A model generated the notes under the pieces. The model was given only the letters and a program-made list of their open reading frames with translations, ran no database searches and was not told the DNA's origin. The translations under genes and the position numbers were made by a program. Of a stretch of DNA of 59,201 nucleotides, positions 39,937 to 53,939 are shown piece by piece; position 1 is the first letter of the stretch, and every line of letters starts with the position of its first letter. Source of the stretch: Candidatus Thalassarchaeaceae archaeon. GTDB taxonomy: Archaea; Thermoplasmatota; Poseidoniia; Poseidoniales; Thalassarchaeaceae. The stretch covers positions 1 through 59,201 of the forward strand of contig CBFIAW010000002.1 of assembly GCA_965660655.1 (NCBI GenBank). The letters run 5' to 3'.

Positions 39937-39969
39937 CGGGCTGGCGACATCAAGGCTTCTGCGCTATCT

Positions 39970-41778
39970 CTATCCGCCGGATTGGAACAACCCGACCGAT
40001 TGGTCGAGTATCCAAGCGCTGAAGAAATTCGCTATGCCGGCTATCCACATCATCTGGATCATCTGCCCCAGAACTAGGGTTGTTCCCCCTCCTCTGATTC
40101 TCGCAGTGATTAGTCCAAGAACCAAAATTGTAATGACGATGAGTCCCGAACCCATGTAGTTGAAGACTGCAATGTTCTGGTCTATACCACCTGTCTCCGC
40201 TAGAGCTGGCAGAGCCACGTCAACCCCACCTGACGCGGTCCCTACCTCACCTGTGCTGTCCACTAGCCCCTGGGCAACCGATGCGATGGTCTCCCCCAGG
40301 CCGGAGATGATGGAGGTGGTGATGTTCAGCGCTATAATCATGGCAATCAGCAGACCGTAGGATACGCTTCTCATCACGTTGGCCGAAATCTGCCTCCTCT
40401 GGCGTAACCCGAGGAGGGTGGTCGTGCTCTGGGAGACCATGTCGCCCACCAGACCCGGCATACCAGTCGAGGAGGAGCCCTCGATGAACACTCTTGTGAA
40501 ACGCGAGACGAGCATCGAGTTGTTGTCCGCTGCGAACCAATCCCATGAGTAGTCGCTGTCGATCCTCATCGATAGCCTCTTTTCCAGATTTGAGATGGAA
40601 TCGTCGAGGGCCCCGAAGTCGATTCCCGAGAGTGCCTTCACCATTGCGCTCGGCTCCTGTGCCCTAGCCTGAGCCGTCCCTCCGAAAGCCCTGATGAACT
40701 CTGGGAATGCATCGTCCCTCCTCCTAACTCGCGTCTCCTCCTGAGAGGTGATCATAGAGGGTGCGAGGAGCGGGGACATCATTGCTGCGATAACCAGCAG
40801 ACCGTAGTATTTCCATTGGGCGAAAAGGATGTCTGTCCCGTAAAAGACGAACACTGTGATAAGTAGGAAGAACATTATGACTGCAAGAACGCCAGCGAAC
40901 ATCCACGATCGCCGCATGTCAATCGATTGATCGGTATTGAAGCCGTGCTTGGCGAACAGGTCCTCATCCGGAATCACTAGGGTGAAGAGGTACCATGCAC
41001 CTATCTGTAGCAAGCCGAATAGGGTCCCGGCCATCAAGACCCATCTGGCTCTGAAGACCACTTCGAACCAGTTGTCTGTCTCTGATCCTGTCTGGAAGAG
41101 GATAAGGTGCAGACCGGCGACCACAAGAAGGAGGAGTCCCGTGGTGGTCAGTGAGACGAAGGTCTCCCTCAGGGTGTCCAACTGCTCCAGCCTGGCGTCG
41201 TATATGGTGGTGTAGGCCTGCTCGAAGGTCTCGTTCTCGCTGGTGAAGAACTCCCCGATTGGTTGGCCGACCTCCACTGAGAATGCCATCCTGTCAAGGA
41301 AATCGCTCCAGATTTCGGATGGGCTCTGACGGCCCACTATCCTAGCAGCCTCTGGGAGGTTTGTGTGCCATTTGGTGACTAGTGTCTCAATCGCTTGTAT
41401 CTCGTGTGCGAGCGCACCGTAGTCACCCATCTCCTTGAGGACGTCGAACATCCCCTTCTCGGCTGACTCTCCCATGGAGAGGATTCCCATCCTGGTCATG
41501 AACATGTGCATGTCCTGCTCAATCTGAATTGCCTCAGCGGAGACCTGTGCCACTGGGTATGCTATCGTTCCAGCGAAGGCGAGAAGCGGGAATAACAGCA
41601 CCAATCCGACGGCGGCCGCTCCTCCGATGGAATCGCTTACCGAAAACCAAACAGATAACCCTGCTATTAGGCCGATGATTACTGCTGGCAGGGAGAAAAC
41701 CATCAGATACCTACTGAAGGGCATCCCGAGACGCAGGAGAGCGATTTCCCACAGGCTGGCCTTTTCCTCCATCTTCAC
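39970..41778 (-). CDS. flaJ: Archaellum assembly membrane platform protein FlaJ/ArlJ
   Basis: 602-aa polytopic protein with two T2SS-F-like halves, immediately downstream of flaI. Confidence 0.8.
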   Translation of the reverse strand: MKMEEKASLWEIALLRLGMPFSRYLMVFSLPAVIIGLIAGLSVWFSVSDSIGGAAAVGLVLLFPLLAFAGTIAYPVAQVSAEAIQIEQDMHMFMTRMGILSMGESAEKGMFDVLKEMGDYGALAHEIQAIETLVTKWHTNLPEAARIVGRQSPSEIWSDFLDRMAFSVEVGQPIGEFFTSENETFEQAYTTIYDARLEQLDTLRETFVSLTTTGLLLLVVAGLHLILFQTGSETDNWFEVVFRARWVLMAGTLFGLLQIGAWYLFTLVIPDEDLFAKHGFNTDQSIDMRRSWMFAGVLAVIMFFLLITVFVFYGTDILFAQWKYYGLLVIAAMMSPLLAPSMITSQEETRVRRRDDAFPEFIRAFGGTAQARAQEPSAMVKALSGIDFGALDDSISNLEKRLSMRIDSDYSWDWFAADNNSMLVSRFTRVFIEGSSSTGMPGLVGDMVSQSTTTLLGLRQRRQISANVMRSVSYGLLIAMIIALNITTSIISGLGETIASVAQGLVDSTGEVGTASGGVDVALPALAETGGIDQNIAVFNYMGSGLIVITILVLGLITARIRGGGTTLVLGQMIQMMWIAGIANFFSAWILDQSVGLFQSGG

Positions 41779-41786
41779 CCGTCCCC

Positions 41787-43535
41787 CTAGTGATTAATTC
41801 CTGTCCAAGTCTCCAATGAAGAAGCGAATCTGTCCCACCCTTCCTTGAAGTAAATGTCCAGAAGGTCGAACACATCGTCGTAGTGGGTCAGATCGCGGTC
41901 ACACATCCTCTGTATTGCCTCGGTTCGCCGCTGGAGTTCGTCGTAGATGTCCCTCTTGCTGCGGAAACCCATCCTAGGGGCTATTTTGTTCTCGAGCATG
42001 TCCGATTGGAACATCCCCCTGAAGTAGACCTCGTCTGCTACAGGATCCCACTCGAACATGTTCCTGGTCAAGATGCCGTCTGCGGTCTTGTCGAAGCCGA
42101 TGACCTCGCTGACCCCGGTAATCCTCCTGGCTATTCCCCCTCCCGGGGCCTCGACGACCTCTTGGAAGATCGCGAAATTGAGATTGTCGAAGAAACGTGC
42201 AGGGACGTTGATTGGGTCTCCGGTGAACCTCTGGATGAGCTTCACAATATTGGAAGCGTGGAAGGTCCCGACAACAGGGTGTCCAGTCTGCATAGCTTGG
42301 AAGGCGATCGCCCCCTCGACTCCTCGGATCTCCCCGATAATGATGTATCTGGGCCTGGATCTTAGTGCCGCCTTCAGCAGGTCGAACATCTCGACACGGG
42401 AATCCTCGTTCTTCGATTCCCTAGTTATCAGTCGCTGCCAGATGGTGTGGGCCACCTTGACCTCGGGTGTGTCCTCGGCGGTGTAGATCTTGACGTTGTG
42501 ATCGATGAATGGGAGAATTGCATTAAGGGTCGTGGTCTTTCCGGATGCCGTCTCTCCAGAGACAAGCATGGACATCCCCGACTCGAGGCCCAGCCAGATG
42601 TATGCGGCCATCTGGGCCGAGAGTGTCTTCCACTTGATCAGCTGGATAATCGAGATTGTCTCCTCCGCGAACTTCCTAATAGTGAATGAAGAGCCTTGGA
42701 TTGAGACATCGTCGCTGTAGATAATATTGATTCTCGAGCCATCCAGCAGGGCACCGTCGACAATGGGTTTGCTGTCGGAAACGGGCCTACCGATCCTCTC
42801 CGACATGGATCTGAGGTACTTGGTAAGGAGGTCCTGGTCCTTGAATGCGATATTGGATGTGAGCATAGGGAAGACCTTGTGGTCCATGTTGATCCTCGAA
42901 AGGCCAATGGAGTGAATGTCCTCCAGCATCTCGTCGGCTAGTAGTGTCTCAAGGGGGCCGTTGTTCACCAGATCCCTCACAACCACGTACTTCAGGCGGT
43001 CCAGCTGATCTGGCGTTACCTTCAATGGGGCCTCGCCCAGACCAATGAGTTCCCTAGCTTGGTTGATAATTGGATTCGACAGGATTGACGAGGTCGTGGT
43101 GGTGGTCATCTCATCCATCATCTCGTGAATCATTATGATGAATTCCTCGTCGTCATCGAATCTCTCCTTCTGGGGGGCGTCTCGGAGGAGGCGCTCCACG
43201 ATATTGTCCCGGATTTCCTCCTCCTCCATTGTGATGGTTGGCTCGAGACCGAACCAGAAGGTGTTGCCCGCCCCCTCGGCACCCTCCGGAGGGGAGTAAA
43301 CGTGTGCGAAGCATGGTGGCTTGGTAGCGTAAATCAGGTTCCGAGGACTGACGCTCTTTGCATCCCTATCGAGTGGCCCGTAGTATATCGGCCTAGAACC
43401 GTGCTTTGCTTCGAACTCCTCGATCCATTCTCGGATGTGTGGGAATTCTGCCATCAAGCCGCCCAAGTCTCCCGGTTGTATGTTGAAAGTCGGCTTGTCG
43501 GGTTTTTCTTCGCCTGCTTCCTGTTCCGTGACCAT
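41787..43535 (-). CDS. flaI: Archaellum ATPase FlaI/ArlI (secretion superfamily ATPase)
   Basis: Walker A is LVSGETASGKTTTLNA. Also YTAEDTPE, IIIGEIRGVEG and GHPVVGTFHAS (Asp/His boxes). Confidence 0.9.
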   Translation of the reverse strand: MVTEQEAGEEKPDKPTFNIQPGDLGGLMAEFPHIREWIEEFEAKHGSRPIYYGPLDRDAKSVSPRNLIYATKPPCFAHVYSPPEGAEGAGNTFWFGLEPTITMEEEEIRDNIVERLLRDAPQKERFDDDEEFIIMIHEMMDEMTTTTTSSILSNPIINQARELIGLGEAPLKVTPDQLDRLKYVVVRDLVNNGPLETLLADEMLEDIHSIGLSRINMDHKVFPMLTSNIAFKDQDLLTKYLRSMSERIGRPVSDSKPIVDGALLDGSRINIIYSDDVSIQGSSFTIRKFAEETISIIQLIKWKTLSAQMAAYIWLGLESGMSMLVSGETASGKTTTLNAILPFIDHNVKIYTAEDTPEVKVAHTIWQRLITRESKNEDSRVEMFDLLKAALRSRPRYIIIGEIRGVEGAIAFQAMQTGHPVVGTFHASNIVKLIQRFTGDPINVPARFFDNLNFAIFQEVVEAPGGGIARRITGVSEVIGFDKTADGILTRNMFEWDPVADEVYFRGMFQSDMLENKIAPRMGFRSKRDIYDELQRRTEAIQRMCDRDLTHYDDVFDLLDIYFKEGWDRFASSLETWTGINH

Positions 43536-43547
43536 TCAAACCCCTCC

Positions 43548-44249
43548 TCAAGCAACTGCTGTGATGTCCACGATGAAACCCATCTCAGGCATCACCTTCC
43601 AACCGATTCTCTCGGTCACTGGCCCGGCGGCCCTGAGGAACCTAGTTACCCCCACCGTCCTAACCAACTGCCCTCCGACGACTGAAGTCATCATGTCCAA
43701 GACTACCTCCGCGGAGTTCTTCATGCCCCTGAGGATGTCATTGTCCATCTCTTCTGGATCGATCGTGAGGATCAGGGTTCGTCCCTCTGATGTGAATCTC
43801 CTCAGGGACACCATTAGCTCCTTGCTGGACATCTCCTCCGGCATTAGCTCGGATGCCCTGTCGATTACGACGACCTCGGCATCCTTGGAGGCTGGGGAAT
43901 CCAGTATATCCAACAGAGTGACGTTCTCTTCGGAGGGCTCGGCAATGACTCCGAGGCTGGAAATCAAATGGAAGGAGCCCTCGTCTATTCTCTTGTCCAT
44001 GTAGTAACCGATGCTGGCAACCTGCTCGAGCCAGCCTCTGGTAGTGAGCTCCGTGGTGTACAGAGCGACCCTGACGTCATTGGCCGTCATCCCGAATGAC
44101 ATTCGCTGACCTATGATGCTCTTGCCGGATCCTATCCCACCACACACTAGCATGAGTGCCCTGTTTGGGATTGCTGTGCCCATGCTCTGGCCCAGGCTGT
44201 CCTGGATGACCCCGAACTCGAAGTTGTCCACGTTAGGCTGGCTTGACAA
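43548..44249 (-). CDS. flaH: Archaellum RecA/KaiC-like ATP-binding protein FlaH/ArlH
   Basis: LVCGGIGSGKSIIGQRM Walker A, ~230 aa, located between flaG and flaI. Confidence 0.85.
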   Translation of the reverse strand: MSSQPNVDNFEFGVIQDSLGQSMGTAIPNRALMLVCGGIGSGKSIIGQRMSFGMTANDVRVALYTTELTTRGWLEQVASIGYYMDKRIDEGSFHLISSLGVIAEPSEENVTLLDILDSPASKDAEVVVIDRASELMPEEMSSKELMVSLRRFTSEGRTLILTIDPEEMDNDILRGMKNSAEVVLDMMTSVVGGQLVRTVGVTRFLRAAGPVTERIGWKVMPEMGFIVDITAVA

Positions 44250-44733
44250 TTCGGACTTCCTCCCTAAGTGTGTCTAGTCCCGTGTAACCGGTTGCTGTCG
44301 AGGAGACGCTGACTGTCATTGTTAGGTCATTATCCCCAGAGATTAGGTCAGTATCGAGGCCGGAATTGGTGAGTGTGAACTGGACTGTCTTGCCCGGTAG
44401 CCATTCCGTAGTGACCCCATCAGTGACTGTCACGGTCATGGTTGTGCCCCCTAGTGCAGCCCCCACCGAGTTGACGTCCAAGAAGGTGTCCCCCGAGTTC
44501 TGGAGGTGTATCTTCGCATCCTCACCCCCCTCCCAAGCTATGTTGATCGGGTCGCTGACCAGTGACACGCGCGTCCTGACGTCCTCCGCGCTCTGCTTGC
44601 CCCTCTCGTCGAGGACGTCATCCATGTCATCCCATGTCCCTAGGAGGATGCCGGAGACCAGTGCTGCAACAATCAGGCCAGTGCTGAGGAGGATTATCTC
44701 TGAAGGCCCGCTTGTCATTTTCTCTCTCCTCAC
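44233..44733 (-). CDS. flaG: Archaellum protein FlaG/ArlG
   Basis: The archaellin-like N-terminal helix is SEIILLSTGLIVAALVSGILLG, followed by a beta-rich domain. The position after flaF matches the euryarchaeal order. Confidence 0.6.
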   Translation of the reverse strand: MRREKMTSGPSEIILLSTGLIVAALVSGILLGTWDDMDDVLDERGKQSAEDVRTRVSLVSDPINIAWEGGEDAKIHLQNSGDTFLDVNSVGAALGGTTMTVTVTDGVTTEWLPGKTVQFTLTNSGLDTDLISGDNDLTMTVSVSSTATGYTGLDTLREEVRIVKPA

Positions 44734-45422
44734 GTTATGGTTACGGTCTCCGCGTCGTTGTAGTCGTATATAGCAAGGAAGGCCCTGTCTGGGTCGTGGT
44801 CGATTGCGAATCCGTGGGTGTTGGAATCCAGGGGGAATGCATCCGTGGATAGCTGCTCTCCCGGGAAAAGGTACAGGTTGGTGCCCGAATAGTGGGTAAC
44901 GAAGGGGATGAATGGGGTTCCCTGGTCTTTGGCCCCCGTGTCTGAGAAGGTTACGAAGATGTGCGAGAGATCGACCGTTTCAGAGCCTGTGTTCTGGATT
45001 GTGATGGTATTCTTATCGTGGAGTGAGGAAATAGTTCCGGTGGCATCGCCATTACCACATCCGTTAATGGTGATAACGTCGCCAATTTCGTATCCTGATC
45101 CCGGTTGTTCGACAGAAATAGAATCCACTGAACCCGTTGTTTGAGTTACCGACACTACTAGGCCGGTTCCGCCTCCAGTTGTTGTGCAGCCCCCTCCAGT
45201 GACGTAATCAGAACCGCTTAAGGTAACAGAAAGAGTGTTGGCGGGCCCTGTGGACTCAACCTTGTCAGTTACAGACAAGAGGTTCACCTGTGGCTCTGGA
45301 AGTTCGTACTCGGAGTTCTTCACCGACTCGTCGATGCTCTCGACCATGGTCACGGTCGCCATTCCGAACACCATTATGAAAACGGTGCCAACGACCATCG
45401 CGCCGACGCTGGACCCAGACAA
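44730..45422 (-). CDS. flaF: Archaellum protein FlaF/ArlF (with a Gly/Thr-rich insertion)
   Basis: N-terminal TM VGAMVVGTVFIMVFGMATVTMV plus a beta-sandwich-like remainder. There is a 4-nt overlap with flaG. Confidence 0.55.
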   Translation of the reverse strand: MSGSSVGAMVVGTVFIMVFGMATVTMVESIDESVKNSEYELPEPQVNLLSVTDKVESTGPANTLSVTLSGSDYVTGGGCTTTGGGTGLVVSVTQTTGSVDSISVEQPGSGYEIGDVITINGCGNGDATGTISSLHDKNTITIQNTGSETVDLSHIFVTFSDTGAKDQGTPFIPFVTHYSGTNLYLFPGEQLSTDAFPLDSNTHGFAIDHDPDRAFLAIYDYNDAETVTIT

Positions 45423-45435
45423 TCAAATCCCCCCC

Positions 45436-46257
45436 CTAGGGAGTCCCCTGGGTCCTCCAGGCCTCGATCAGAGCGGCGAATGTCAGCAGGGTCCTGTTGT
45501 TCACGGATGGTGCTCCCTCGGACCCCTCCCCGGGCTCTGCGAGGGTCGCTATTGAGATGAGTGCCTTCTCCTCGGCTGAGGTTATGACGCCTGACTTCGA
45601 GGCGGCCTTGAGGAAGCCGAGGGCGTCTGCACCGCTCATGTGATCCAGCAGGAGGGCGACTATCTTGGTGGGGTCGACGCTCGGTCCGTGCATCAGGGCG
45701 TCGGCCTCGGAGCTCTTCAGGAACGGGTTGACCGCGAGGGACTGTGCCTCGTATAGGTCGAGGAGCCCGGGGCCCCCTGGCATCCCCCCAGCAGTGAGGT
45801 TCCCTCCTCCGGAAGGGGAGGGGTCGTCAACTGGTCGGCTTGTGACTGCCCCATCGTCTCCCACCGTGTGGATTACGTCCTGAGAATCGCCACCCCCACC
45901 ACCTGAAGCGGGTGCGATAGAAACCGACTCGGCGGCGATCTTTGCAGTCTGCTGGGCGGTCATCTTGATGTTTGCCTCCATGAGGTCCATGGCCGTCTCC
46001 AGCCTCTCGAACCTGTCCTTAACCATGTCCACTAGCTCGGGGATCATGTCCTGTCCCTTGTTGGCCTGTGGGTCACCGAGCACACCGACCCTCGTTCCCG
46101 AGGGGGCAAACAGCCAGGCCTCGAGGTCTGTAGGCCTGAACTCAGTCGGTATGTCCACGTGTTCGACGGTTAGTTTGGCAACCTTGTCTAGTCGGGAGGC
46201 CATGCCCGGGTCGGCAGAGGAGTCAGAGGAGGTCCGGAACCTGTCCATTAACCCCAT
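45436..46257 (-). CDS. Archaellum-locus protein at the FlaC/D/E position (coiled coil + Gly/Pro linker + helical C-domain)
   Basis: Located between the archaellins and flaF. No TM. The coiled segment is VKDRFERLETAMDLMEANIKMTAQQTAKIAAE. Sequence similarity to FlaC/D/E was not recognisable by eye. Confidence 0.4.
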   Translation of the reverse strand: MGLMDRFRTSSDSSADPGMASRLDKVAKLTVEHVDIPTEFRPTDLEAWLFAPSGTRVGVLGDPQANKGQDMIPELVDMVKDRFERLETAMDLMEANIKMTAQQTAKIAAESVSIAPASGGGGGDSQDVIHTVGDDGAVTSRPVDDPSPSGGGNLTAGGMPGGPGLLDLYEAQSLAVNPFLKSSEADALMHGPSVDPTKIVALLLDHMSGADALGFLKAASKSGVITSAEEKALISIATLAEPGEGSEGAPSVNNRTLLTFAALIEAWRTQGTP

Positions 46258-46312
46258 CAGAACACCTCATCTCTCCCTCTCCATTTGTTGCTTGTGCCTC
46301 GTGAGCCCCCGC

Positions 46313-46996
46313 TCACATTACCGACTTGCCAAGTGTCAGGGATTCGACCTTCAGGGTAGCGAGGGTCTCGCCACCGCCGTCGACTACTACTCGCAGATTC
46401 AGTACGGCCCCTACTCCTGCCTCAGCATCGCATCCAGGGGAGTCGCCCTTGACGGTTGGAGCAGTGAAGTCTGCTGTGGTTAGGGTGACGCTCGTGTCCG
46501 TATCAGTGGGTGTTAGATCGATGACGAACTTGAACGTGGTACCTGCTGTAATCTCATCGCCATCTGCTATGTCCGTGTCGTCAAGCTCCAAGGAGTCGGC
46601 CTCGAGGGTGTCAATCGTGGAGAAGGAACTACCATCATCGAGCGTGACTATGCACGAGATGTACCACGTGATATCGCCCTCTTGGACGTTCAGTGAGCCG
46701 GATGAGACTCTTGCGATTACGACCATGGTGTCGACGTCAGTGTCCGTCCCGGTTGCACCCATGGGCTCGCCGGTTGTCACGATGTATACGTCGGAGACCG
46801 AGACCTTACCGGATATCTGATCCCTCGTGTCCGAACTAGTGTTCTCGGCGTTCTGCTGCAGCTCCTCAGCGGTCTTGATGATGATGGTGGATGCCACAGC
46901 GGCCACTAGGATCAGGGCGATGAAGACGATCATCGCACCGATACCGATCGATCCCTCCGTGTCCCTCCTGTCCGGGGTTGTGAGTTCTGTAACCAT
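46313..46996 (-). CDS. flaB: Archaellin (FlaB/ArlB), copy 2
   Basis: The class III signal plus conserved N-terminus is ...RRDTEG/SIGIGAMIVFIALILVAAVASTIIIKTAEELQ. Confidence 0.9.
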   Translation of the reverse strand: MVTELTTPDRRDTEGSIGIGAMIVFIALILVAAVASTIIIKTAEELQQNAENTSSDTRDQISGKVSVSDVYIVTTGEPMGATGTDTDVDTMVVIARVSSGSLNVQEGDITWYISCIVTLDDGSSFSTIDTLEADSLELDDTDIADGDEITAGTTFKFVIDLTPTDTDTSVTLTTADFTAPTVKGDSPGCDAEAGVGAVLNLRVVVDGGGETLATLKVESLTLGKSVM

Positions 46997-46997
46997 C

Positions 46998-47642
46998 TCA
47001 GGTCACCTCCTTGCCAGAGACGACCGATTCGATTTGGAGCTCGGAGATGGTCGTGCCTCCTCCGTTGACGACCATCTTCATCTCGACGGTGTCGCCTACC
47101 GAGAGAGAGGTTGAGCAGGCTCCTGCGTCGTCACCATCCGGGTCGAGGTTGATGTCGAACTTGAAAGTGGTACCGGCGGTAAGCTCAGCCGTTGCTAAGT
47201 AGTCGGAGCCGTCAAGTTGGTCCGCGTTGACACCTTCAGGCGCAACGATGGTACCCCCTCCAGCATCAGTGGTCCCGAGGTTGCCAGTGACCAATCCGAA
47301 TGCAGCGCCGCCGCAAACAACCACCCAATCGATGTCCTGGACCTGTACGCCGGTGGATCCCGATGCAATCTTGGCGGTGACGATGAACGAGTCGGCATTC
47401 GCGGCGGTGGTCGTTCCAGTACCATTCACTATGATCTGGATGATGTTCACCTTTCCTGAAATCTCCTTTCTCGTATCGTCGCTCGTTGCTTCAGCGTTCT
47501 GCTGCAGCTCTTCGGCGGTCTTGATGATGATCGTCGAGGCCACCGCGGCTACTAGGATTAGTGCGATGAAGACAATCATCGCTCCAATACCGATTGAGCC
47601 TTCGTCTCGGTTTCTTTCTACTGTCTGGTATTCTTCGCTCAT
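46998..47642 (-). CDS. flaB: Archaellin (FlaB/ArlB), copy 1
   Basis: ...NRDEG/SIGIGAMIVFIALILVAAVASTIIIKTAEELQQNAE. It is a tandem paralogue of the downstream copy, with divergent variable domains. Confidence 0.9.
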   Translation of the reverse strand: MSEEYQTVERNRDEGSIGIGAMIVFIALILVAAVASTIIIKTAEELQQNAEATSDDTRKEISGKVNIIQIIVNGTGTTTAANADSFIVTAKIASGSTGVQVQDIDWVVVCGGAAFGLVTGNLGTTDAGGGTIVAPEGVNADQLDGSDYLATAELTAGTTFKFDINLDPDGDDAGACSTSLSVGDTVEMKMVVNGGGTTISELQIESVVSGKEVT

Positions 47643-47690
47643 TGCGTGTTCACCCGTGCCCCCCTGTGATTGCTAATCATTTATGATATT

Positions 47691-47717
47691 ACTGGAAAAT
47701 GAGGATGTTTTTCCAGT
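47691..47717 (-). promoter_or_regulatory. Perfect 9-bp inverted repeat (ACTGGAAAA-N9-TTTTCCAGT) next to a TATA-like box upstream of the first archaellin gene
   Basis: The arms are at 47691-47699 and 47709-47717. The AT-rich aatatcataaatga (minus strand, ~47677-47690) lies immediately promoter-proximal. A GGGTGA SD-like element sits ~8 nt before the ATG at 47642. Confidence 0.3.
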
Positions 47718-47731
47718 TCTGGATATGAAAA

Positions 47732-48814
47732 CTAACTGCCGATACCAATGGCCTCACGCAGGTTGAGTACCTCGATTGGCACGTGCACAACGTCCCCGGG
47801 CGACAGGTTCTCGACTAGTGGCAGCCTTAGAGTCTCGAAGCCGTCTGGCATCCATGGGTCTAGAAGGAGCCCCTGCATGAGGTTCGGTGTCCTGTTCTCT
47901 ACCCTGGTCTGGACCTTGAGGCTGCCATAATCGACATGGTACCCGGTAGTGATGTTCAGGCTGCTACCGAGGAGAGATGTCTGGGGGAATGAACCCGAGG
48001 GTCGTATCTCGATCCCTATCTCGATGAATCCCTCTGGGGGAATCTCGGGGATCTCGCACATCTTCGGGGTGGAGGACCACCCAAACGGGATTGGCGGTGC
48101 CAGTCTCATGGTTGAGATGTTGTTCTCGCCTGTGTTCTCGAGGGTGATAACCATGAGGGCGTGGTCCTTGCCCTCTGGCCATGATGTTCCGATCGAAAGG
48201 AAGAAACTGTTCACTAGGAAGGGGCTGGTTGCCTCGTGAACTGCGATCGGACCGAGTGCGCTTATCGCATCCTCGAAGGCCTTGGCAGCCGAGGACAGGT
48301 CGGAGTCTAGGGCCTTCTTTCCCTGGTTGACCAGAGTCAGTGCGATCTCCTCGATGTCGCTCAGCTCCCCCATCTCGTTGAGGTGCCTTCCGAGTGTGTT
48401 GAGGGATCTCTCCAAGCCATCCCTGCCCATTGATGACACCGCTCCCTCGACGCAATCCGCAGCAGCTCCCCAGTTCCCCTCCCTTAGGTGCTGGAGGCCC
48501 AGCATCGTGAGGTCCCATGCGTTGCGGTCGCCCTCGGACATCTCCTCGAGCTCCTCGAGCGAGCGCTCCAGTGAGTAAAGCGCCCTGTAGAGGTCCATGA
48601 TCTGGCCCTCGGCCTCATCGACCTCCTTTGACAGGGTCTTCAGCATCTTCTTGGCGCTCAATGGCCTGTTGGCCCAGATGGCGAACTGTACGTTCTCCGC
48701 CTCTTCCTCAATGTAGTCTATCCTCTTGAGGGTCGCCTCGGCCCCCCCTGCGGCTGGTGCTTGCTCCCTAGCCAATTCAGTTGCCCCCGCCTGGCTTGTT
48801 CCCGGCCCTTCCAA
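47732..48814 (-). CDS. Signal-less protein: helical N-half plus two CARDB/NEW3-like beta-sandwich signatures; partner of the giant surface protein
   Basis: 360 aa. ITLENTGENNISTMRLAPPIPFGW and RVENRTPNLMQGLLLDPWMPDGF. The ATG at 48814 overlaps the upstream gene by 38 nt. An alternative TTG at 48775 lies 1 nt after that gene's TGA. Confidence 0.5.
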   Translation of the reverse strand: MEGPGTSQAGATELAREQAPAAGGAEATLKRIDYIEEEAENVQFAIWANRPLSAKKMLKTLSKEVDEAEGQIMDLYRALYSLERSLEELEEMSEGDRNAWDLTMLGLQHLREGNWGAAADCVEGAVSSMGRDGLERSLNTLGRHLNEMGELSDIEEIALTLVNQGKKALDSDLSSAAKAFEDAISALGPIAVHEATSPFLVNSFFLSIGTSWPEGKDHALMVITLENTGENNISTMRLAPPIPFGWSSTPKMCEIPEIPPEGFIEIGIEIRPSGSFPQTSLLGSSLNITTGYHVDYGSLKVQTRVENRTPNLMQGLLLDPWMPDGFETLRLPLVENLSPGDVVHVPIEVLNLREAIGIGS

Positions 48815-51800
48815 GAATCTTCTTGATTCGTATGGCGCGCAATTCGATGTCTGCGAGTTGGCTGTAGAGTGTGTCGTATGACCTGTCGAGGAACCTCAGA
48901 ATCATGTGTACCAGGATGGGGGAGATCACCATTAAGGAAAGGATCGAGATGATTGAGCTCGCCCCCATGTCTATCTCGAGTGCGGGGGTGAGTAGGACGA
49001 ACGGCAGGAAGGCGTATGGGGCGCAGGAGATGATCGCCCGTAGTTCCTTTCGTGTGTTTGCCTGTGCCTCGTCGTGGTCCTCCAGGAGGGACGTGGTCCC
49101 GATCCTGGACTTCTTCCTGTCATCATGGATGGACTGAAGCTCGCTCGAGGACAGCCATGCCACAAAGGCTGCGAATACGACTGAGGCGATCGCGCAGATC
49201 AGGGTTAGCCAAGTGGAGAGGCCGGATAGGGAGAGCATGCCGAATCCCATGGCAGCCACGTAGGCAGATGCGTGGAGCCGGCTCTCTGCCTCATCCATTC
49301 CCTGGCGAAGGAGCGAGAGTGCCACGAACAGGATTGCCAATGCAGCCATGGCTGCGGTCGGGATTGCCAATCCCGAAAGCTCGATGCTCGGTGTCGTCCA
49401 TGATTTGATTGAGAGGGCGGCCGCGTAATTGTCGTTTTCTTCCAAGTTGCCGAAGACCCCCCCCTGTTGCATTATTTCCGGTGGGAATACCAGAGATACC
49501 GCACAGTCGAGTGTCTCGGAAGATGAGTACCAGGGGATGGCGTTTAGCTCGACGGCCCATGATGCCGTGGCATTGCCCCCAGGGGCAAGCGAAGGCAGGG
49601 TGATGGTGGCAAACGCATTGGCGATTGTAGCGTATGAGGTGGACGTGCAGTCTAGCCTGACTACGACTTCTGAAGGCATCATTGCATTGCCCGCGTTGAT
49701 CACCAAGACGTCTATCCAAGTGCTTTCGCCCTCTGTACCCTCGCTCCTGAAGGAGACGCCGTCGATCATGGGGTCGGTCGATTCGGACATCCTTAGCTTG
49801 ACCACTAGGTCGGTGGAGGATTCCGTGTCGGTGGTCTCGTCCGGGTTCCTTAGTTGCAGGAAGATATCCCATCCGTCATCGGGTGCTGGGAACCTCTTGT
49901 CGGGGATGATGACTTGGATGATTATCGTACCACCATGACCCTCGCGTGACCCGCCCTCGTAGGGAGTGGTTGGCTCCAGTTCCCATGCTGAGTTGCATGT
50001 CGCCAGAGTCGCCGCGGTAGCAGCTATTCCCGCTCCGCCTTGATCGGCTAGGAGGCACATTCCGCTACCGTTGTCGATGTCGTGGTCTATGCTCATCCCC
50101 CACTCAGACTCCGAGAAGAAGCTGGAGGGGACTTTCCTCTCGGGGAGATCAGCAGCCGAGTCGTACGGGTCCCTCTTTCCGTTCATGGCTAGGGTGTAGG
50201 CCCTCTCCGCGGGGGAGGGACTGCCCCAGGAGTTAACGTTGGTCCAAGGGATCGCAATCTGACGGCAGTTCGGGTCCTGGTTGCCGTCGCATGCCAGTTC
50301 GCCAGCAGAGTCGAAGCTGAGTAGGTACTCGTCGTCGGTCTGGGCCCTGACCACAATAATCGGGGTGCTGTCCTGCTGGGAATCGACGTCGATCCCTATT
50401 GGGGTTCGAGTTAGGGTGAAGGACCCGGTCTCGCCCTTGAAGTGGTCTGCTTGCAGGGTGCTGAATGTGAACATGAAGGAGCTGGTCTGCCCCACGCCCA
50501 GCGTTAGGGTGGTGGATCCGACGTTGTTGTCAACTCTGAACCTATCCATGGTCGGATCGATGTCTGTCGTCGACCACTGCACGCTCAATTGCATCTCTGC
50601 ATTGCCCTTGTTCTCCATCACGAAGTGGACCGCACGAGCCACGCCCGGGACAATTGCTATCCTCTCGGGCGCCTCTACCAACTGCACGTCGAACACCGGT
50701 AGTACTTCGATCTGAATCATCTTCGAACCAGCGGGAACCCCTCCCCCTTTGGCAACCCTATCTTGGAGGGGGACGCTCTGCTGGGTTCCATTGACCGTAA
50801 TCGTCGATGGCCAGGTTGGGTAAGGATCGGTGATGTTGACGGCCCTTAGAGTAATGTTGTGGATGACGTAGGCCTCGAGAATCTCGCCTCCATCGATCAA
50901 TTCGGGGAGTGTGATCGTCAGCATGACCTTGTGACTTGATTCCGGATCAATCGTGAATCCTGATTCGTTGACGGAGTAAGTCCAGTTCTTCGAGGCCCCG
51001 AAGTCTGCGGTAAGGTTCAGCGTCTCCATCAGGTTTCCCCTGTTTATCAGCGTCACTTCGATATCTACGAAGCCCCCAGGCGCGACCTCGAATTGGGACG
51101 ACCCGATGAAGTCTATTCGATGATCGGGTGCTACTTGCACGTTCCATTCGCAGGTAGACAAGATCGTGCCGTTATAGGACGCTGTCAGATTGAAGCTCTG
51201 GGATACGTCAGCCCTAGCAAGTAGGCTGGCCTTGGCATAGACTCTCACGATTGCCTGAGAACCAGGAGGTACCAACTGAGTAGCGTTCATCTCACAGGCC
51301 CCTTGCTCATTGAAGCAGACGTCGAGTTTGTCGGGATACGAGCTTTCTAGAGCAAGTTCGTAAGTAATGTTGGTGTTGCCGGTGTTGTTTAGCACTGTGA
51401 TAATCGTTTTCTGGCCCACCCTGTTGGTCTCAGAAAGGTCAGCGGTTTCGGAGGACTCGATTACCGCTGTCGATTTGGTGGGATAAAACTCAGCAGAGAC
51501 GACTTCGGTTAGTCTGATCAGTGCTGGCGCATAGGCCATTAGCTCTCCCGTTTCAGAGGCGTTGGCATAGACCCATACCTCATGGATCTCGTCGGCGCTG
51601 GCTGAGTCAGGAGGAATTGCTGTGACTATTACTGTGAACTGGTCTTGGAATGCCGTCCCCCCAGTCCCATTGTCCGGGAAGAGGTTTGTTCTGGATTGTA
51701 GCAGGTTCGCAGCTGAGCTTGCTAGTGAAATCGTCCATCCGGGCTTAGAAACATATCCGAGAGTGAAGTTAGCAACGTCATTGCCGGTGTTCTTCAGGGT

Positions 51801-53939
51801 TAGATTGGCGGAAATCGACGTCCCTGGGTCACCGACTGCGACGCCTGAAGATATCATCTCCGCGGACCAAATCTCCTCTATGGTCAATGAGACGGTAGCA
51901 GATGCATTGCGGGAGATAGTTCCCGGGAAAGTACCCCAATCAGAGGTTGCTTTGAATGAGAATGAGAGAGTGCCTGCAGCGGGGTAGGGGAACTCGACGG
52001 GGTTCGGGTTGAATGCTAGTGCGACTTTGCCGTATCCTATCTCCCCTGGCTCTAGTTCCATTGTAGATGGCGCTGCAGCGGCGGTCCACCTCTGTAGTTC
52101 GGCTGGACTTGAGCCAGTTAGAGGGGTGTCCTGGACAAATGACATGCCATTCCCATTGGAGGGGGAGAGGGAGACTTGGGCCAATGTATCGTTCGAACCG
52201 AGGTTATGCACGATGGTAACCTCGTAGTCGACCCATCTGTTGAAGTTCCCCCCGATGATGTCATTGACCGTGATGTCGTTGGCCCCTCCTGTGAGGATGA
52301 TGTCCAGTTCGACAATGCTGTCCACAAGAATGGTTGTCTGGTTGGTGGACGGAACTCCACCCTCCATCGGGATGGCTTGTACGATAAGAATGACCTGTTC
52401 TATCGATGATACCTTCCAAGACGGGTTCAGCGGCATCTCTAGCTCTGGGGTCGTGATCGTGACTGGGATTGCACGGGTCTCATTGGGCAATAATACATCA
52501 GTGATGGTTACTGGGGAGTGGATGGTCCAGAATGGGACCGCTTCTGTGGCTCCGACGTCGATCTGGTACTGGGCTGGGGCGGTTCCCGTGTTCTTGAGTG
52601 TGTACTCAATGGTCCTAGGGGTTCCCGGAGTGATGTTAGCGAAATTTTCACCTGATTGATGGCTGTGATTCTGGAAGATCTCCGAGGAGTAAGTGCCTCC
52701 TGCCATTACCATGGTAGTGGCCTCCAGGACATATCCCGCAGTTTGGCTTTGGATAGTTACTGTGACCAACACGGATGCTCCGTTTGAGGCGTCCGCGGGG
52801 ACGTTGACGTTGATCTGGATGGCCTCGGTGTCTCCTGCTGCTACCGTGAGTGGGGAAGAGGAGGAGAATATTGTCCCTGATGCGTTAACCCAGTAGTCAC
52901 TCGGTGCGGAGTTGTTTGACTGGAGAACCTCGAAGTCATCGCTTACCGTACCCGAGTTCTGCAGGATGAAGTTCAGAACTGTCTGGGAACCGGGGTCGAC
53001 GTTTCTGTTTATTGCTGGAAGTAGAGAGGCTCTGAGAGCGACGAAATTGACGATTCTGGATTCGATGGTGACTGATGTGGTGGATACGCCCGCGATCAAG
53101 ATGCTCCCACCCAATGTGTAGTCCCCCTCCAGGTTAGAGCCATCGAAGGAGACGGTGATGTTCTGTGGCGCGGGGGGGTTCGCAAGGCTTCCAGGCAATA
53201 GTTCCTCAGTGGAAGATGTGAGTGAAATGCTGGCACCCCCCAGAGAGGGAGTCAGGGTTAGTTGTGCGGTGACGTCTACGGGTTGGTTTCCGGTGTTCAC
53301 CGCCGTGATGCCCCCCTCCCACATAGCTCGGGCCAAGGAGGAGCCGTCTTCTGGGAGGGAGTCGGCAATGTCTGCAGCGTTTTCCACGGCAACTACGTTG
53401 ACGTTGTTGAGTGACATCACGTCGTTGCTTGCGTTGGAGTCAGAAGACGTCGAGGCCACCTCCCATGATGCGGTTAGCTGCAAACCGGAATCTATCACGG
53501 AGGATGCATCCCAGTATAGGAGATGGTTTGCGGCAACCCCTGGGTTGATTGTGACAGATCTGTTGTCAACCAACACCCCATCGACCTTCAGAGTGACATT
53601 TCCTTCCGTAGCCGAACCACCGATGTTCAGAATTCCTACCCTGATAATATGGTTCTGGGGGGCTAGGGTTGGAACCCCTGCGACGAGAACCGAGGGGGTG
53701 GTTACATGGAGGTCGGTTACTGCGACATCCGGATCTATTGATCTTCCCGAGGTCATCATCGGAACCTCTTCTACTGGTGCTGCCGGAATGCTTGCCATCA
53801 ATGGGGAGAGGAACAGCAGTGCCACCAGAATCGTGGCCTTGCTAGCCCTATTTGTGAGCCTATTGGAGTATTTGGCATGGTTTGAGATGTCTTGTGTTCC
53901 CATCGCTTCCGCTCCCCTCCTCGTAGAGGAGACTAACAA
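48777..53939 (-). CDS. Giant (1720 aa) repeat-rich surface protein with N-terminal signal/anchor and a polytopic C-terminal membrane block
   Basis: The signal-like segment is KATILVALLFLSPLMASIPAAP. At least 7 recurrences of the x-L-x-N-x-G-N/T beta-sandwich strand motif occur. Four hydrophobic C-terminal segments (one about 37 aa, so likely two helices, i.e. ~5 TM) are followed by a basic tail. An alternative ATG lies at 53903. Confidence 0.8.
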   Translation of the reverse strand: MLVSSTRRGAEAMGTQDISNHAKYSNRLTNRASKATILVALLFLSPLMASIPAAPVEEVPMMTSGRSIDPDVAVTDLHVTTPSVLVAGVPTLAPQNHIIRVGILNIGGSATEGNVTLKVDGVLVDNRSVTINPGVAANHLLYWDASSVIDSGLQLTASWEVASTSSDSNASNDVMSLNNVNVVAVENAADIADSLPEDGSSLARAMWEGGITAVNTGNQPVDVTAQLTLTPSLGGASISLTSSTEELLPGSLANPPAPQNITVSFDGSNLEGDYTLGGSILIAGVSTTSVTIESRIVNFVALRASLLPAINRNVDPGSQTVLNFILQNSGTVSDDFEVLQSNNSAPSDYWVNASGTIFSSSSPLTVAAGDTEAIQINVNVPADASNGASVLVTVTIQSQTAGYVLEATTMVMAGGTYSSEIFQNHSHQSGENFANITPGTPRTIEYTLKNTGTAPAQYQIDVGATEAVPFWTIHSPVTITDVLLPNETRAIPVTITTPELEMPLNPSWKVSSIEQVILIVQAIPMEGGVPSTNQTTILVDSIVELDIILTGGANDITVNDIIGGNFNRWVDYEVTIVHNLGSNDTLAQVSLSPSNGNGMSFVQDTPLTGSSPAELQRWTAAAAPSTMELEPGEIGYGKVALAFNPNPVEFPYPAAGTLSFSFKATSDWGTFPGTISRNASATVSLTIEEIWSAEMISSGVAVGDPGTSISANLTLKNTGNDVANFTLGYVSKPGWTISLASSAANLLQSRTNLFPDNGTGGTAFQDQFTVIVTAIPPDSASADEIHEVWVYANASETGELMAYAPALIRLTEVVSAEFYPTKSTAVIESSETADLSETNRVGQKTIITVLNNTGNTNITYELALESSYPDKLDVCFNEQGACEMNATQLVPPGSQAIVRVYAKASLLARADVSQSFNLTASYNGTILSTCEWNVQVAPDHRIDFIGSSQFEVAPGGFVDIEVTLINRGNLMETLNLTADFGASKNWTYSVNESGFTIDPESSHKVMLTITLPELIDGGEILEAYVIHNITLRAVNITDPYPTWPSTITVNGTQQSVPLQDRVAKGGGVPAGSKMIQIEVLPVFDVQLVEAPERIAIVPGVARAVHFVMENKGNAEMQLSVQWSTTDIDPTMDRFRVDNNVGSTTLTLGVGQTSSFMFTFSTLQADHFKGETGSFTLTRTPIGIDVDSQQDSTPIIVVRAQTDDEYLLSFDSAGELACDGNQDPNCRQIAIPWTNVNSWGSPSPAERAYTLAMNGKRDPYDSAADLPERKVPSSFFSESEWGMSIDHDIDNGSGMCLLADQGGAGIAATAATLATCNSAWELEPTTPYEGGSREGHGGTIIIQVIIPDKRFPAPDDGWDIFLQLRNPDETTDTESSTDLVVKLRMSESTDPMIDGVSFRSEGTEGESTWIDVLVINAGNAMMPSEVVVRLDCTSTSYATIANAFATITLPSLAPGGNATASWAVELNAIPWYSSSETLDCAVSLVFPPEIMQQGGVFGNLEENDNYAAALSIKSWTTPSIELSGLAIPTAAMAALAILFVALSLLRQGMDEAESRLHASAYVAAMGFGMLSLSGLSTWLTLICAIASVVFAAFVAWLSSSELQSIHDDRKKSRIGTTSLLEDHDEAQANTRKELRAIISCAPYAFLPFVLLTPALEIDMGASSIISILSLMVISPILVHMILRFLDRSYDTLYSQLADIELRAIRIKKILGRAGNKPGGGN

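What the first reader, a model, noticed from the sequence alone, without database searches (positions are those of the whole stretch)
47732..53939. Giant repeat-rich surface protein with a polytopic C-terminal membrane block, coupled to a cytoplasmic partner directly upstream of the archaellins
Seen in sequence: a 1720-aa ORF has an N-terminal signal/anchor and more than 1400 aa of predicted beta-rich ectodomain. At least seven copies of the strand signature occur: LQNSGTVSDDFEVL, TLKNTGTAPAQYQIDV, TLKNTGNDVANFTLGY, VLNNTGNTNITYELAL, TLINRGNLMETLNLTA, MENKGNAEMQLSVQW and VINAGNAMMPSEVVV. Instead of a single anchor, it ends in four hydrophobic segments: AAMAALAILFVALSLL; YVAAMGFGMLSLSGLSTWLTLICAIASVVFAAFVAWL; ISCAPYAFLPFVLLTPAL; IISILSLMVISPILVHMIL. 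The second is long enough for two helices, giving ~5 TM in total. A helical, basic cytoplasmic tail follows. Its TGA (48777-48779) is overlapped by, or 1 nt from, the start of a 360-aa protein with no signal peptide. That protein combines a helical N-half with two of the same N-x-G beta-sandwich signatures. It ends 90 bp upstream of the first archaellin gene, and everything is on the minus strand. Inference: this may be a co-expressed adhesion/motility locus in which a surface adhesin is wired through a multi-pass membrane module to a cytoplasmic partner next to the archaellum genes. That would allow a surface-sensing or attachment-to-motility switch. I know of no described function for such a pair.
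Basis: partly seen in the sequence, partly recalled or inferred. Interest (0 to 1): 0.6.

Follow-up and report, generated by a model that had tools for sequence, protein, structure and literature searches.

The report
Giant membrane protein pair heading archaellum genes
A 1,708-residue surface protein with a five-helix membrane block and a tightly coupled cytoplasmic partner sit in front of the swimming-filament (archaellum) genes in every Marine Group II locus examined and in at least eight other families of the phylum, so they are probably an undescribed accessory part of that machine, though its job is untested.

Summary
Both ORFs are real, conserved and transcribed. The giant (likely 1,708 aa, ATG 53903) has a Sec-type signal, about 1,460 aa of Ig-like repeats and five C-terminal TM helices. 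The partner (347 aa, TTG 48775) starts 1 nt after the giant's TGA and has no TM segment.

The pair is not a stand-alone adhesin locus. The order giant, partner, archaellins, arlF-J recurs in all nine Poseidoniales loci examined. It also recurs in six other Thermoplasmatota families. Within Poseidoniales the partner tracks ArlJ (63 genomes with both, at least 19 with neither). All nine tested genomes from other families, pair-bearing or not, have an ArlI orthologue.

In seven metatranscriptomes the pair sits at depth 0-3. That matches arlF-J and is 10-50 times below the archaellins, which have their own promoter. This argues against a bulk S-layer protein.

Neither protein matches a curated family beyond generic Ig-like domains. 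The partner coexists with bona fide ArlC/D/E, so it does not replace it.

Best reading: a membrane-spanning accessory or anchoring complex of the archaellum. The adhesin and surface-sensing-switch ideas are untested. A 2019 paper drew conserved unannotated genes in this operon, and S-layer-like Ig proteins are known in other archaellum loci, so this is a new variant of a known kind.

The parts
48777..53903 (-). Giant gene, 1,708 aa from ATG 53903. The longest ORF runs from TTG 53939 (1,720 aa), and the residue numbers used in this report follow that frame.
   Evidence: ORF and translation. Gene callers give 1,708 aa. A Shine-Dalgarno-like GGAGGGGAG lies upstream of the ATG. Orthologues of 1,203-1,720 aa occur in nine Poseidoniales loci and in other families of the phylum.
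53772..53846 (-). N-terminal hydrophobic segment (residues 32-56), a Sec-type signal peptide or anchor.
   Evidence: Kyte-Doolittle scan. An equivalent N-terminal segment is present in all 10 full-length orthologues scanned and in the outgroup giants.
49386..53771 (-). Ectodomain of about 1,460 aa built of Ig-like (CARDB/NEW3/MG-like) beta-sandwich repeats, with 29 N-glycosylation sequons.
   Evidence: Pfam Ig_VWA7 scores above its cut-off; NEW3, FixG_C, CARDB and fn3_5 score below theirs. The strand motif occurs 9 times against 0.58 expected. The last domain is modelled as a beta-sandwich and matches the CARDB domain of PF1109 and MG domains in Foldseek. Conservation is flat along the length.
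48885..49370 (-). C-terminal five-helix membrane block (about residues 1524-1685). TM1 is 1528-1549, TM2 1552-1570, TM3 1576-1597, TM4 1622-1649, and TM5 starts at 1660.
   Evidence: Hydropathy. AlphaFold2 model m0f8faa7663cc with pLDDT 82.5. A 4-5 segment block is present in every complete orthologue, including those of other families. Foldseek and PDB sequence searches find no analogue for it.
49044..49136 (-). Conserved cytoplasmic loop and helix between TM3 and TM4 (SSSELQSIHDDRKKSRIG...DH).
   Evidence: Alignment A3 of 19 orthologues has invariant W1595, E1600, I1604, D1607, G1614 and H1622. The loop has 6 K+R, so it is predicted to lie inside the cell.
48780..48884 (-). Cytoplasmic basic amphipathic tail helix (residues 1686-1720).
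   Evidence: The TM5 helix continues to about residue 1714 in the model. The LYxxLxDxExxAxRI pattern is conserved. The tail has 7 K+R and a net charge of +4.
48773..48779 (-). Coupling junction: giant TGA (48779-48777), 1 nt, then partner TTG (48775-48773).
   Evidence: Sequence. In 12 of 13 loci from Poseidoniales and other families the two genes overlap or lie no more than 14 nt apart (coordinates). RNA contigs span the junction in runs X9, X13 and X1.
47732..48775 (-). Partner gene ('p360'), 347 aa, acidic (net charge -26), with no signal peptide or TM segment.
   Evidence: Found in 31 of 41 relatives. The family is small: 80 hits among 1.84 billion representative proteins.
48257..48742 (-). 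Partner N-half: six helices, TPR-like or coiled-coil.
   Evidence: AlphaFold2 model mb764b413a502 with pLDDT 76.5. Weak TPR and coiled-coil Pfam hits appear in several orthologues.
47762..48208 (-). Partner C-half: NEW3-like beta-sandwich region of two lobes, each with an (I/V)EN strand. This is the best-conserved part of the protein.
   Evidence: NPCBM_assoc (NEW3) hits occur in 11 of 18 orthologues, best E 6e-5. Foldseek returns only generic Ig/MSP/PapD-like matches.
47643..47731 (-). 89-nt spacer holding a 9-bp-stem hairpin (47691-47717) and an AT-rich TATA-like element. It marks the boundary between the low-level giant/partner unit and the high-level archaellin unit.
   Evidence: Sequence. 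Contig depth jumps from 0-3 to 14-90 at this point in seven metatranscriptomes. An adapter-joined contig end at 47648 in run X7 suggests the archaellin transcript starts there.
38932..47642 (-). Context: the archaellum locus. It comprises arlB x2 (46998-47642, 46313-46996), a 273-aa gene in the ArlC/D/E slot (45436-46257), arlF, arlG, arlH, arlI, arlJ and an A24 prepilin peptidase.
   Evidence: Pfam Arch_flagellin, KaiC-type ATPase and Peptidase_A24 hits. The gene order is conserved in relatives.

Best explanation
The two genes encode a dedicated accessory complex of the archaellum that spans the membrane.

The giant protein is exported by a Sec-type signal. It displays roughly a dozen Ig-like domains on the cell surface and is held in the membrane by a five-helix C-terminal bundle. 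The loop between TM3 and TM4 and the amphipathic tail of that bundle face the cytoplasm.

The acidic 347-aa partner is made in matched amounts by translational coupling. It stays in the cytoplasm and most likely docks on those conserved cytoplasmic elements through its TPR-like or NEW3-like domains.

Together they would form an outside-to-inside scaffold next to the motor. One possibility is a local S-layer-like collar or anchoring point for the ArlF/G stator and the filament base. Another is a link to the cytoplasmic ArlH/I/C-D-E assembly.

Shown here: gene linkage, coupling, topology features, phyletic co-occurrence with the archaellum, and transcript level similar to the motor genes.

Inferred, not shown: a physical giant-partner complex, contact with the motor, and the anchoring role.
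For: 1. Synteny. The order giant, partner, arlB ... arlJ is found in all nine Poseidoniales loci examined, from three families. It is also found in families f11, f19, f36, f45 and f46. In f21 the pair sits with arlB and arlCDE only.
2. Phyletic profile. In Poseidoniales, 63 genomes have both ArlJ and the partner, and at least 19 have neither (genera g7-g12 and g15). The four discordant genomes are explained by contig ends or fragmentation. Nine genomes of other families were tested, four with the pair and five with only a partner-like beta-domain protein. All nine have an ArlI orthologue at 53-57% identity.
3. The pair is single-copy and never separated. The gene gap is no more than 14 nt in 12 of 13 loci.
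4. The architecture is constant across the phylum: N-terminal signal, Ig chain of 1,200-1,700 aa and 4-5 C-terminal TM segments for the giant, and no TM segment in the partner.
5. The cytoplasmic loop holds invariant residues although overall identity between families is only 23-27%.
6. Some outgroup partners carry zinc ribbons and poly-acidic tails, which are cytoplasmic features.
7. Transcript contig depth is 0-3 for the pair, like arlF-J (0-10), against 14-90 for the archaellins in seven metatranscriptomes. RNA contigs span the giant/partner junction.
8. The pair diverges at a rate like the peripheral parts of the machine. Identity between families is 24% for the giant and 31% for the partner. 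It is 24-29% for ArlF/G and 48-68% for ArlJ/I.
9. Conservation is flat along the ectodomain and orthologues align collinearly over the full length, as expected of a structural part.
10. Precedent exists: S-layer-like multi-Ig proteins occur in Methanococcales and Thermococcales archaellum loci (PMC13705601).
Against: - There is no direct evidence of any physical interaction. AF-multimer could not be run.
- In f7 and f17 the pair lies on a different contig from arlHIJ. In f8, f23 and f25 archaellum loci lack the pair. The archaellum therefore works without it in some lineages.
- The archaellins have their own promoter, so the pair is a separate transcription unit.
- Contig depth is a poor measure of expression.
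- Ig-repeat surface proteins are also typical of adhesins.
- Gene neighbourhood alone cannot separate 'part of the machine' from 'works alongside it'.
Confidence: 0.5

Rival explanations
1. The giant is a surface adhesin that works alongside the archaellum in particle or cell attachment. This is the 'flagellum-based adhesion' proposed for MGII. The partner would be its cytoplasmic adaptor or chaperone. The pair would be co-inherited with the filament genes because both serve attachment, not because it is part of the motor.
For: - The ectodomain is an Ig-repeat chain with 29 glycosylation sequons.
- Rinke 2018 argues for adhesion because MGII lack chemotaxis genes (PMC6461757).
- The ectodomain diverges quickly between families, at 23-27% identity.
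- The pair can sit apart from arlHIJ in f7 and f17.
Against: - No adhesin-type or lectin domain was detected.
- There is no variable tip and no change in repeat number. Conservation is flat and the alignment is collinear over the full length.
- The gene is single-copy and its transcript level is low, like the motor genes.
- A simple adhesin would not need a conserved five-TM block with invariant cytoplasmic residues plus a coupled cytoplasmic partner.
Confidence: 0.22
2. This is the first reader's idea: a surface-sensing or attachment-to-motility switch. Load or contact on the ectodomain would be transmitted through the five-TM block to the partner, which would then modulate the archaellum motor or its expression.
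For: - The outside-to-inside architecture has conserved cytoplasmic elements and a dedicated cytoplasmic partner.
- MGII lack chemotaxis genes, so another input to the motor would be useful (PMC6461757, PMC6864105).
- The hairpin in the spacer could be an operator.
Against: - Neither protein has a kinase, HAMP, PAS, receiver, HTH or other signalling or output domain.
- No solved relatives exist.
- The partner coexists with bona fide ArlC/D/E, the known switch complex, in other families.
- Nothing in the data addresses signalling.
Confidence: 0.1
3. The giant is a general envelope (S-layer-type) protein of these archaea with a cytoplasmic anchoring partner. It would sit next to the archaellum genes only through conserved gene order, without a specific role in the machine.
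For: - It has the S-layer-like build of signal peptide, Ig-like domains, glycosylation sequons and a C-terminal membrane anchor.
- Large S-layer-like proteins often neighbour type IV filament loci (PMC4858521).
Against: - Transcript depth is 10-50 times below the archaellins in seven metatranscriptomes, which is unlike a bulk envelope protein.
- The partner, the marker searched for, was not detected in the non-archaellated Thalassarchaeaceae genera, which must still have an envelope.
- It is present only in genomes that have ArlI or ArlJ.
Confidence: 0.08

Closest known systems
Unannotated 'hypothetical proteins' of the putative MGII motility operon (Tully 2019, Nat Commun 10:271, PMC6336850, Fig. 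4)
   Same: The locus is the same. That paper states that the FlaAGHIJ genes lie in a syntenic region with several orthologous proteins lacking annotation, conserved between MGII families. These are very probably the genes studied here.
   Different: The paper gives no description of the proteins: no size, topology, coupling or partner. It proposes no function and reports nothing outside MGII. The figure itself could not be viewed here.
S-layer-like multi-Ig proteins in archaellum loci of Methanococcales (arCOG05057) and Thermococcales (PLoS Genet 2026, PMC13705601; Makarova 2016, PMC4858521)
   Same: Both are large secreted proteins built of several Ig-like folds and encoded inside archaellum loci. 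The published proposal is that they prime or locally modify the envelope so the filament can pass.
   Different: Here the protein ends in a conserved five-TM bundle with conserved cytoplasmic elements, and it is translationally coupled to a cytoplasmic partner. Neither feature is mentioned in the passages of those papers read here. Sequence homology to arCOG05057 could not be tested. The lineage, Thermoplasmatota, is different.
ArlF/ArlG stator anchored to the S-layer (Banerjee 2015 and Tsai 2020, as summarised in PMC12448462)
   Same: The proposed role is similar: holding the motor against the envelope so that the filament turns rather than the motor. The domains involved are extracellular beta-sandwiches.
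   Different: ArlF and ArlG are small, archaellin-like proteins with a class III signal, and both are present here as separate genes (44233-45422). The giant has a Sec-type signal and is ten times larger. No homology was found.
ArlC/D/E (Euryarchaeota) and ArlX (Thermoproteota) cytoplasmic motor ring or switch proteins
   Same: The partner is a cytoplasmic protein with a coiled-coil or helical part, encoded next to the archaellins. That is the same general position and character.
   Different: The partner has no FlaC_arch or Arch_fla_DE match, and hhalign probability is 6%. It coexists with bona fide ArlC/D/E in f21 and with proteins in the ArlC/D/E slot in every locus. ArlX has an N-terminal TM segment, by my own knowledge, and the partner has none.
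SlaA/SlaB S-layer pair of Sulfolobales (my own knowledge)
   Same: Both are adjacent, co-transcribed genes for a very large beta-rich surface protein and a smaller protein that combines coiled-coil and beta-sandwich parts.
   Different: In SlaA/SlaB the small protein carries the signal peptide and the membrane anchor, and both proteins are very abundant. Here the giant carries the anchor, the small protein is cytoplasmic, and transcripts are low.

Membership tests
ArlC/D/E (FlaC_arch PF05377, Arch_fla_DE PF04659): for the 347-aa partner | Match to the FlaC_arch and/or Arch_fla_DE domain models | tested here: not met
   There is no hit at E<=10 in any of 18 orthologues. hhalign against outgroup proteins in the ArlC/D/E slot gives a probability of 5.9%.
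ArlC/D/E: for the 347-aa partner | Occupies the slot between the archaellins and arlF, one set per locus | tested here: not met
   The partner lies upstream of the archaellins. It coexists with a separate gene in the ArlC/D/E slot in every locus, and that gene is a bona fide FlaC plus FlaD/E fusion in L021.
S-layer-like multi-Ig proteins of archaellum loci (arCOG05057 type) | Large secreted protein made of several Ig-like folds | tested here: met
   Signal segment. Ig_VWA7 above its cut-off plus NEW3, CARDB and FixG_C hits. Nine strand motifs. The modelled last domain matches CARDB and MG domains.
S-layer-like multi-Ig proteins of archaellum loci (arCOG05057 type) | Encoded within an archaellum locus | tested here: met
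S-layer-like multi-Ig proteins of archaellum loci (arCOG05057 type) | Sequence homology to arCOG05057 members | not testable with these tools
Bulk archaeal S-layer protein | Very high expression or abundance | tested here: not met
   Contig depth is 0-3 against 14-90 for the archaellins in seven metatranscriptomes. Contig depth is a rough measure.
Bulk archaeal S-layer protein | Present in all members of the lineage regardless of motility | tested here: not met
   The coupled partner, used as the marker for the pair, was not detected in the non-archaellated Thalassarchaeaceae genera g7-g12 and g15. The giant itself was not searched for separately in those genomes.
CARDB / NEW3 (NPCBM_assoc) Ig-like domain families | Score above the Pfam gathering cut-off | tested here: inconclusive
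   For the window giant, NEW3 scores 20.5 against a cut-off of 24.4, CARDB 14.2 against 22.7, and only Ig_VWA7 passes (29.8 against 27). The outgroup giant in L021 passes CARDB at 39.9. The partner has sub-threshold NEW3 hits in 11 of 18 orthologues.
Choice-of-anchor T (NCBIfam NF041740) | Score above the curated cut-off of 70 bits | tested here: not met
   52.7 bits over residues 352-499 only.

The most novel reading that the evidence does not exclude
Many Thermoplasmatota, including the ocean's most abundant planktonic archaea, may anchor and position their archaellum with a previously unrecognised two-protein device that crosses the envelope. The giant Ig-chain protein would supply the extracellular scaffold that an S-layer supplies elsewhere. 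Its five-TM bundle and the coupled cytoplasmic TPR/NEW3 partner would tie that scaffold to the motor. This would be a new kind of stator or anchor for a rotary type IV filament machine. It would also bear on the open question of how archaella turn in lineages without a rigid S-layer.
Probability: 0.2. Interest if true: 0.8.

Novelty: new variant of a known kind. Interest (0 to 1): 0.55.

Why it matters
Marine Group II archaea are among the most abundant microbes in surface oceans and remain uncultured. Whether their archaellum serves swimming or attachment is debated.

This pair adds two conserved, completely uncharacterised genes to that machine's locus, one of them over 5 kb long. The present work shows that the module is not an MGII peculiarity. 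It is spread over at least eight further families of Thermoplasmatota.

How the archaellum stator is anchored without a canonical S-layer was raised as an open question for Thermoplasmatales (PMC12448462). No full-length partner was detected here in most other families of the phylum, and family names are not given by the tools. The pair is therefore a concrete candidate anchor only for the lineages that carry it, and it can be tested by AF-multimer, pull-downs and cryo-ET.

If it is instead an adhesin, it would be the first specific molecular candidate for MGII particle attachment.

Tried and rejected
- Partner as a divergent ArlC/D/E or ArlX: rejected. There are no Pfam matches, hhalign probability is 6%, and it coexists with true ArlC/D/E.
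- Giant as the bulk S-layer protein: disfavoured by low transcript depth and by absence of the pair from non-archaellated sister genera.
- Structural analogue for the partner: Foldseek against the PDB gave only generic Ig/MSP/PapD/transglutaminase-barrel matches with TM-scores of 0.2 or less.
- Structural analogue for the five-TM block: the Foldseek hits all fall on the Ig domain. PDB profile searches found nothing.
- Natural fusions of partner and giant as a Rosetta-stone test: none among 1.84 billion representative proteins.
- The search for related loci with the mixed alignment failed for lack of a conserved 7-10 column stretch. The cluster look-up gave only 'Candidatus Thermoplasmatota archaeon'.
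- Weak partner-like hits in f8, f23 and f25 turned out to be stand-alone NEW3-type beta-domain proteins outside archaellum loci. They were not counted as the module.
- The 273-aa protein against outgroup ArlC/D/E by hhalign: no significant match. It has only a marginal FlaC_arch hit.

Full report
**Observation**

The window is a Thalassarchaeaceae (Marine Group II b, Poseidoniales) contig, judged from source names of near-identical proteins. The minus strand carries a 1,720-aa ORF (48777-53939) and a 360-aa ORF (47732-48814).

The real starts are probably shorter:
- The giant starts at ATG 53903, preceded by GGAGGGGAG. This gives 1,708 aa, as gene callers predict.
- The partner starts at TTG 48775, preceded by GGCGGGGG and 1 nt after the giant's TGA. 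This gives 347 aa, the length most gene callers predict.
- A relative has ATG at the same codon, directly after its TAG.

- A CARDB/NEW3-type strand motif occurs 9 times in the giant, against 0.58 expected from shuffles.
- The partner has one strict copy (TLENTGE).
- The partner's second beta-lobe carries VENRTPN instead.
- The other N-x-G candidate in the partner lies in a predicted helix.

**Anatomy of the giant**

- The N-terminal hydrophobic segment (residues 32-56) looks like a Sec-type signal, not a class III signal.
- About 1,460 aa of ectodomain follow. Only generic Ig-like families match: Ig_VWA7 above its cut-off, and NEW3, CARDB, FixG_C and fn3_5 below theirs. The NCBIfam choice-of-anchor-T model scores below its cut-off.
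- An AlphaFold2 model of residues 1390-1720, built on 19 orthologues, has pLDDT 82.5 and pTM 0.67. It shows a final beta-sandwich followed by five TM helices.
- A short cytoplasmic helix carries the conserved ELQxIHDDRKK motif, and the TM5 helix continues into a basic tail.
- K+R counts of 1/0/6/0/7 in the loops and tail fit an N-out/C-in topology.
- Alignment A3 has invariant W1595, E1600, I1604, D1607, G1614 and H1622 in the TM3-TM4 loop. Identity between families is only 23-27% overall.
- Foldseek and PDB profile searches match only the Ig domain (CARDB of PF1109, MG domains, TRAP, Fsx1 domain). Nothing matches the membrane block.
- Conservation along the ectodomain is flat and there is no hypervariable tip.

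**Anatomy of the partner**

- No hydrophobic segment occurs in the window protein or in any of the 12 orthologues scanned. The further homologues also have none.
- The AlphaFold2 model (pLDDT 76.5) has six helices (residues 12-173) and a beta region (190-338).
- Pfam gives sub-threshold NEW3 hits in 11 of 18 orthologues and weak TPR or coiled-coil hits. There is no FlaC or FlaD/E match.
- Foldseek and PDB searches give nothing specific.
- The protein is acidic (net -26), while the giant's tail is basic.
- Homologues in other families add poly-acidic tails and, in two cases, zinc ribbons. These are cytoplasmic features.
- The family is tiny: 80 hits at E<=1e-3 among 1.84 billion representative proteins, with no fusion to a giant.

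**Context and distribution**

Downstream on the same strand lie two archaellins, a 273-aa gene in the ArlC/D/E slot, arlF, arlG, arlH, arlI, arlJ and an A24 peptidase.

Within Poseidoniales:
- The order giant, partner, arlB ... arlJ is conserved in all nine loci fetched from three families.
- In a 151-genome sample, ArlJ and the partner co-occur in 63 genomes. They are jointly absent in at least 19 genomes, from Thalassarchaeaceae genera g7-g12 and g15.
- The four discordant genomes have contigs that end 3-4 kb beyond arlJ, or are highly fragmented.
- This patchy pattern matches the published distribution of the MGIIb archaellum (PMC6461757, PMC6336850).

Outside Poseidoniales, a broadened profile (A6) finds full-length partners in families f7, f11, f17, f19, f21, f36, f45 and f46. 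These are labelled only 'same phylum', so they probably belong to other classes.
- In f11, f19, f36, f45 and f46 the same arrangement recurs: giant (N-terminal signal plus 4-5 C-terminal TM segments), partner (no TM), then arlB-CDE-F-G-H-I-J.
- In f21 the pair precedes an archaellin and a bona fide FlaC plus FlaD/E fusion.
- In f7 and f17 the pair lies on a different contig from arlHIJ.
- Nine genomes of other families were tested for ArlI. Four carry the pair and five carry only a partner-like beta-domain protein. All nine have an ArlI orthologue at 53-57% identity.
- Families f8, f23 and f25 have archaellum loci without the pair.
- The giant-partner gene distance is no more than 14 nt in 12 of 13 loci.

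**Expression**

The stretch is present in many marine metatranscriptomes. Eight runs were laid on the window, and contig depth was read in seven of them.
- The archaellins and the 273-aa gene sit at contig depth 14-90.
- Depth drops sharply at the 89-nt spacer.
- The giant and partner sit at 0-3, similar to arlF-J at 0-10.
- In the eighth run, X1 (an oligo-dT library), depth was roughly even across the whole locus, so it was left out of the depth comparison.
- Contigs from three runs (X1, X9, X13) span the giant/partner junction.
- The spacer contains a 9-bp-stem hairpin and an AT-rich TATA-like element.
- One contig ends in adapter sequence at 47648, which suggests the archaellin transcript starts there.

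The pair is therefore a separate, low-level transcription unit. Contig depth is only a rough measure of expression.

**Interpretation**

Three lines of evidence tie the pair functionally to the archaellum with good confidence, about 0.8:
- tight linkage to the archaellum genes;
- coupling of the two genes;
- the phyletic profile.

Several features favour a structural accessory or anchoring complex (confidence about 0.5 for this class of mechanism):
- transcript level like the motor genes;
- constant architecture across the phylum;
- flat conservation along the ectodomain;
- invariant cytoplasmic residues;
- a dedicated cytoplasmic partner.

The rival readings rank lower:
- A stand-alone adhesin (0.22) is not excluded by any result, but the features above fit it less well.
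- A sensor or switch (0.1) has no domain evidence.
- A bulk envelope protein (0.08) is contradicted by expression and by the phyletic pattern.

The partner is not ArlC/D/E or ArlX.

**Comparison with what is known**

- Tully 2019 noted conserved unannotated genes in the MGII operon but did not describe them.
- A 2026 survey of archaeal type IV filament systems reports S-layer-like multi-Ig proteins in Methanococcales (arCOG05057) and Thermococcales archaellum loci. It proposes that they prime the S-layer for filament passage.
- The present module shares that theme. It adds a conserved five-TM block, conserved cytoplasmic elements and a translationally coupled cytoplasmic partner. Homology to arCOG05057 could not be tested.
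- Gaines et al. 2025 raise the open question of how ArlF/G act as stators without an S-layer in Thermoplasmatales. The pair is a candidate answer only for the lineages that carry it. Full-length partners were detected only in the eight further families listed above.

**Earlier notes of this scan**

Other agents reached a similar reading for other MGII genomes. Those are AI notes and are not counted as independent evidence.

**Verdict**

This is a new variant of a known kind: an S-layer-like accessory protein of an archaellum locus. Interest is 0.55.

Noticed in passing
window 45436-46257 (-): The 273-aa gene in the ArlC/D/E slot is assembled with the archaellins at high depth (contigs 45460-46451 and 45524-46922). 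Its only family signal is a marginal FlaC_arch hit (E 0.05) at LYEAQSLAVNPFL, and hhalign finds no match to outgroup ArlC/D/E.
   Followed up: partly
window 48214-48222 (partner SPF of ATSPFLVN); 273-aa gene NPFL; outgroup ArlC NPFI: A helix-end motif (N/S/D/L)PF(L/I/P) is invariant or nearly so at the helix-to-beta junction of all partner homologues. It also occurs at the end of the FlaC-like segment of the proteins in the ArlC/D/E slot. It could be a shared docking motif or chance; the match is not significant by hhalign.
   Followed up: partly
window 47643-47731: A 9-bp-stem hairpin (ACTGGAAAA ... TTTTCCAGT) sits directly after the partner's stop codon and before an AT-rich TATA-like element. 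RNA depth jumps here, and one contig ends in adapter sequence at 47648. The hairpin may be a terminator for the upstream unit or an operator of the archaellin promoter.
   Followed up: partly
window 53980-55209 (+): A divergent 409-aa membrane-anchored gene with a weak PPC-domain hit neighbours the giant. Homologues also lie next to the giant in three other Thalassarchaeaceae genera (L024-L026) and in the same-genus locus L017. In L016 a homologue lies at the opposite end of the locus, beyond arlJ. None was found in the four other non-Thalassarchaeaceae Poseidoniales loci (L013-L015, L018).
   Followed up: partly
window 48745: One metatranscriptome contig (run X13) carries a 6-nt insertion (CCCTGA on the + strand) in the variable N-terminus of the partner. 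This is presumably strain variation.
   Followed up: no
L019, L021, L022 and proteins P0196, P0210, P0213, P0220: Partner homologues outside Poseidoniales are longer (369-585 aa). They carry poly-Glu/Asp tails, a conserved GF(T/S)PV motif and a basic end. Two have CxxC...CPWC zinc ribbons.
   Followed up: no
G043 (C11 vs C4), G055 (C64 vs C93), G061 (C3 vs C7): In three families the giant-partner pair lies on a different contig from arlH/I/J. In G061 it keeps arlB and arlCDE with it.
   Followed up: partly
L045 12740-16375 (-), L042 9582-12929 (+): Archaellum loci lacking an adjacent giant-partner pair still have nearby ORFs of 1,100-1,200 aa with an N-terminal signal and a single C-terminal TM segment. 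L045 is from f7, whose pair lies on another contig; L042 is from f8, which has no pair. These may be simpler S-layer-like neighbours.
   Followed up: no
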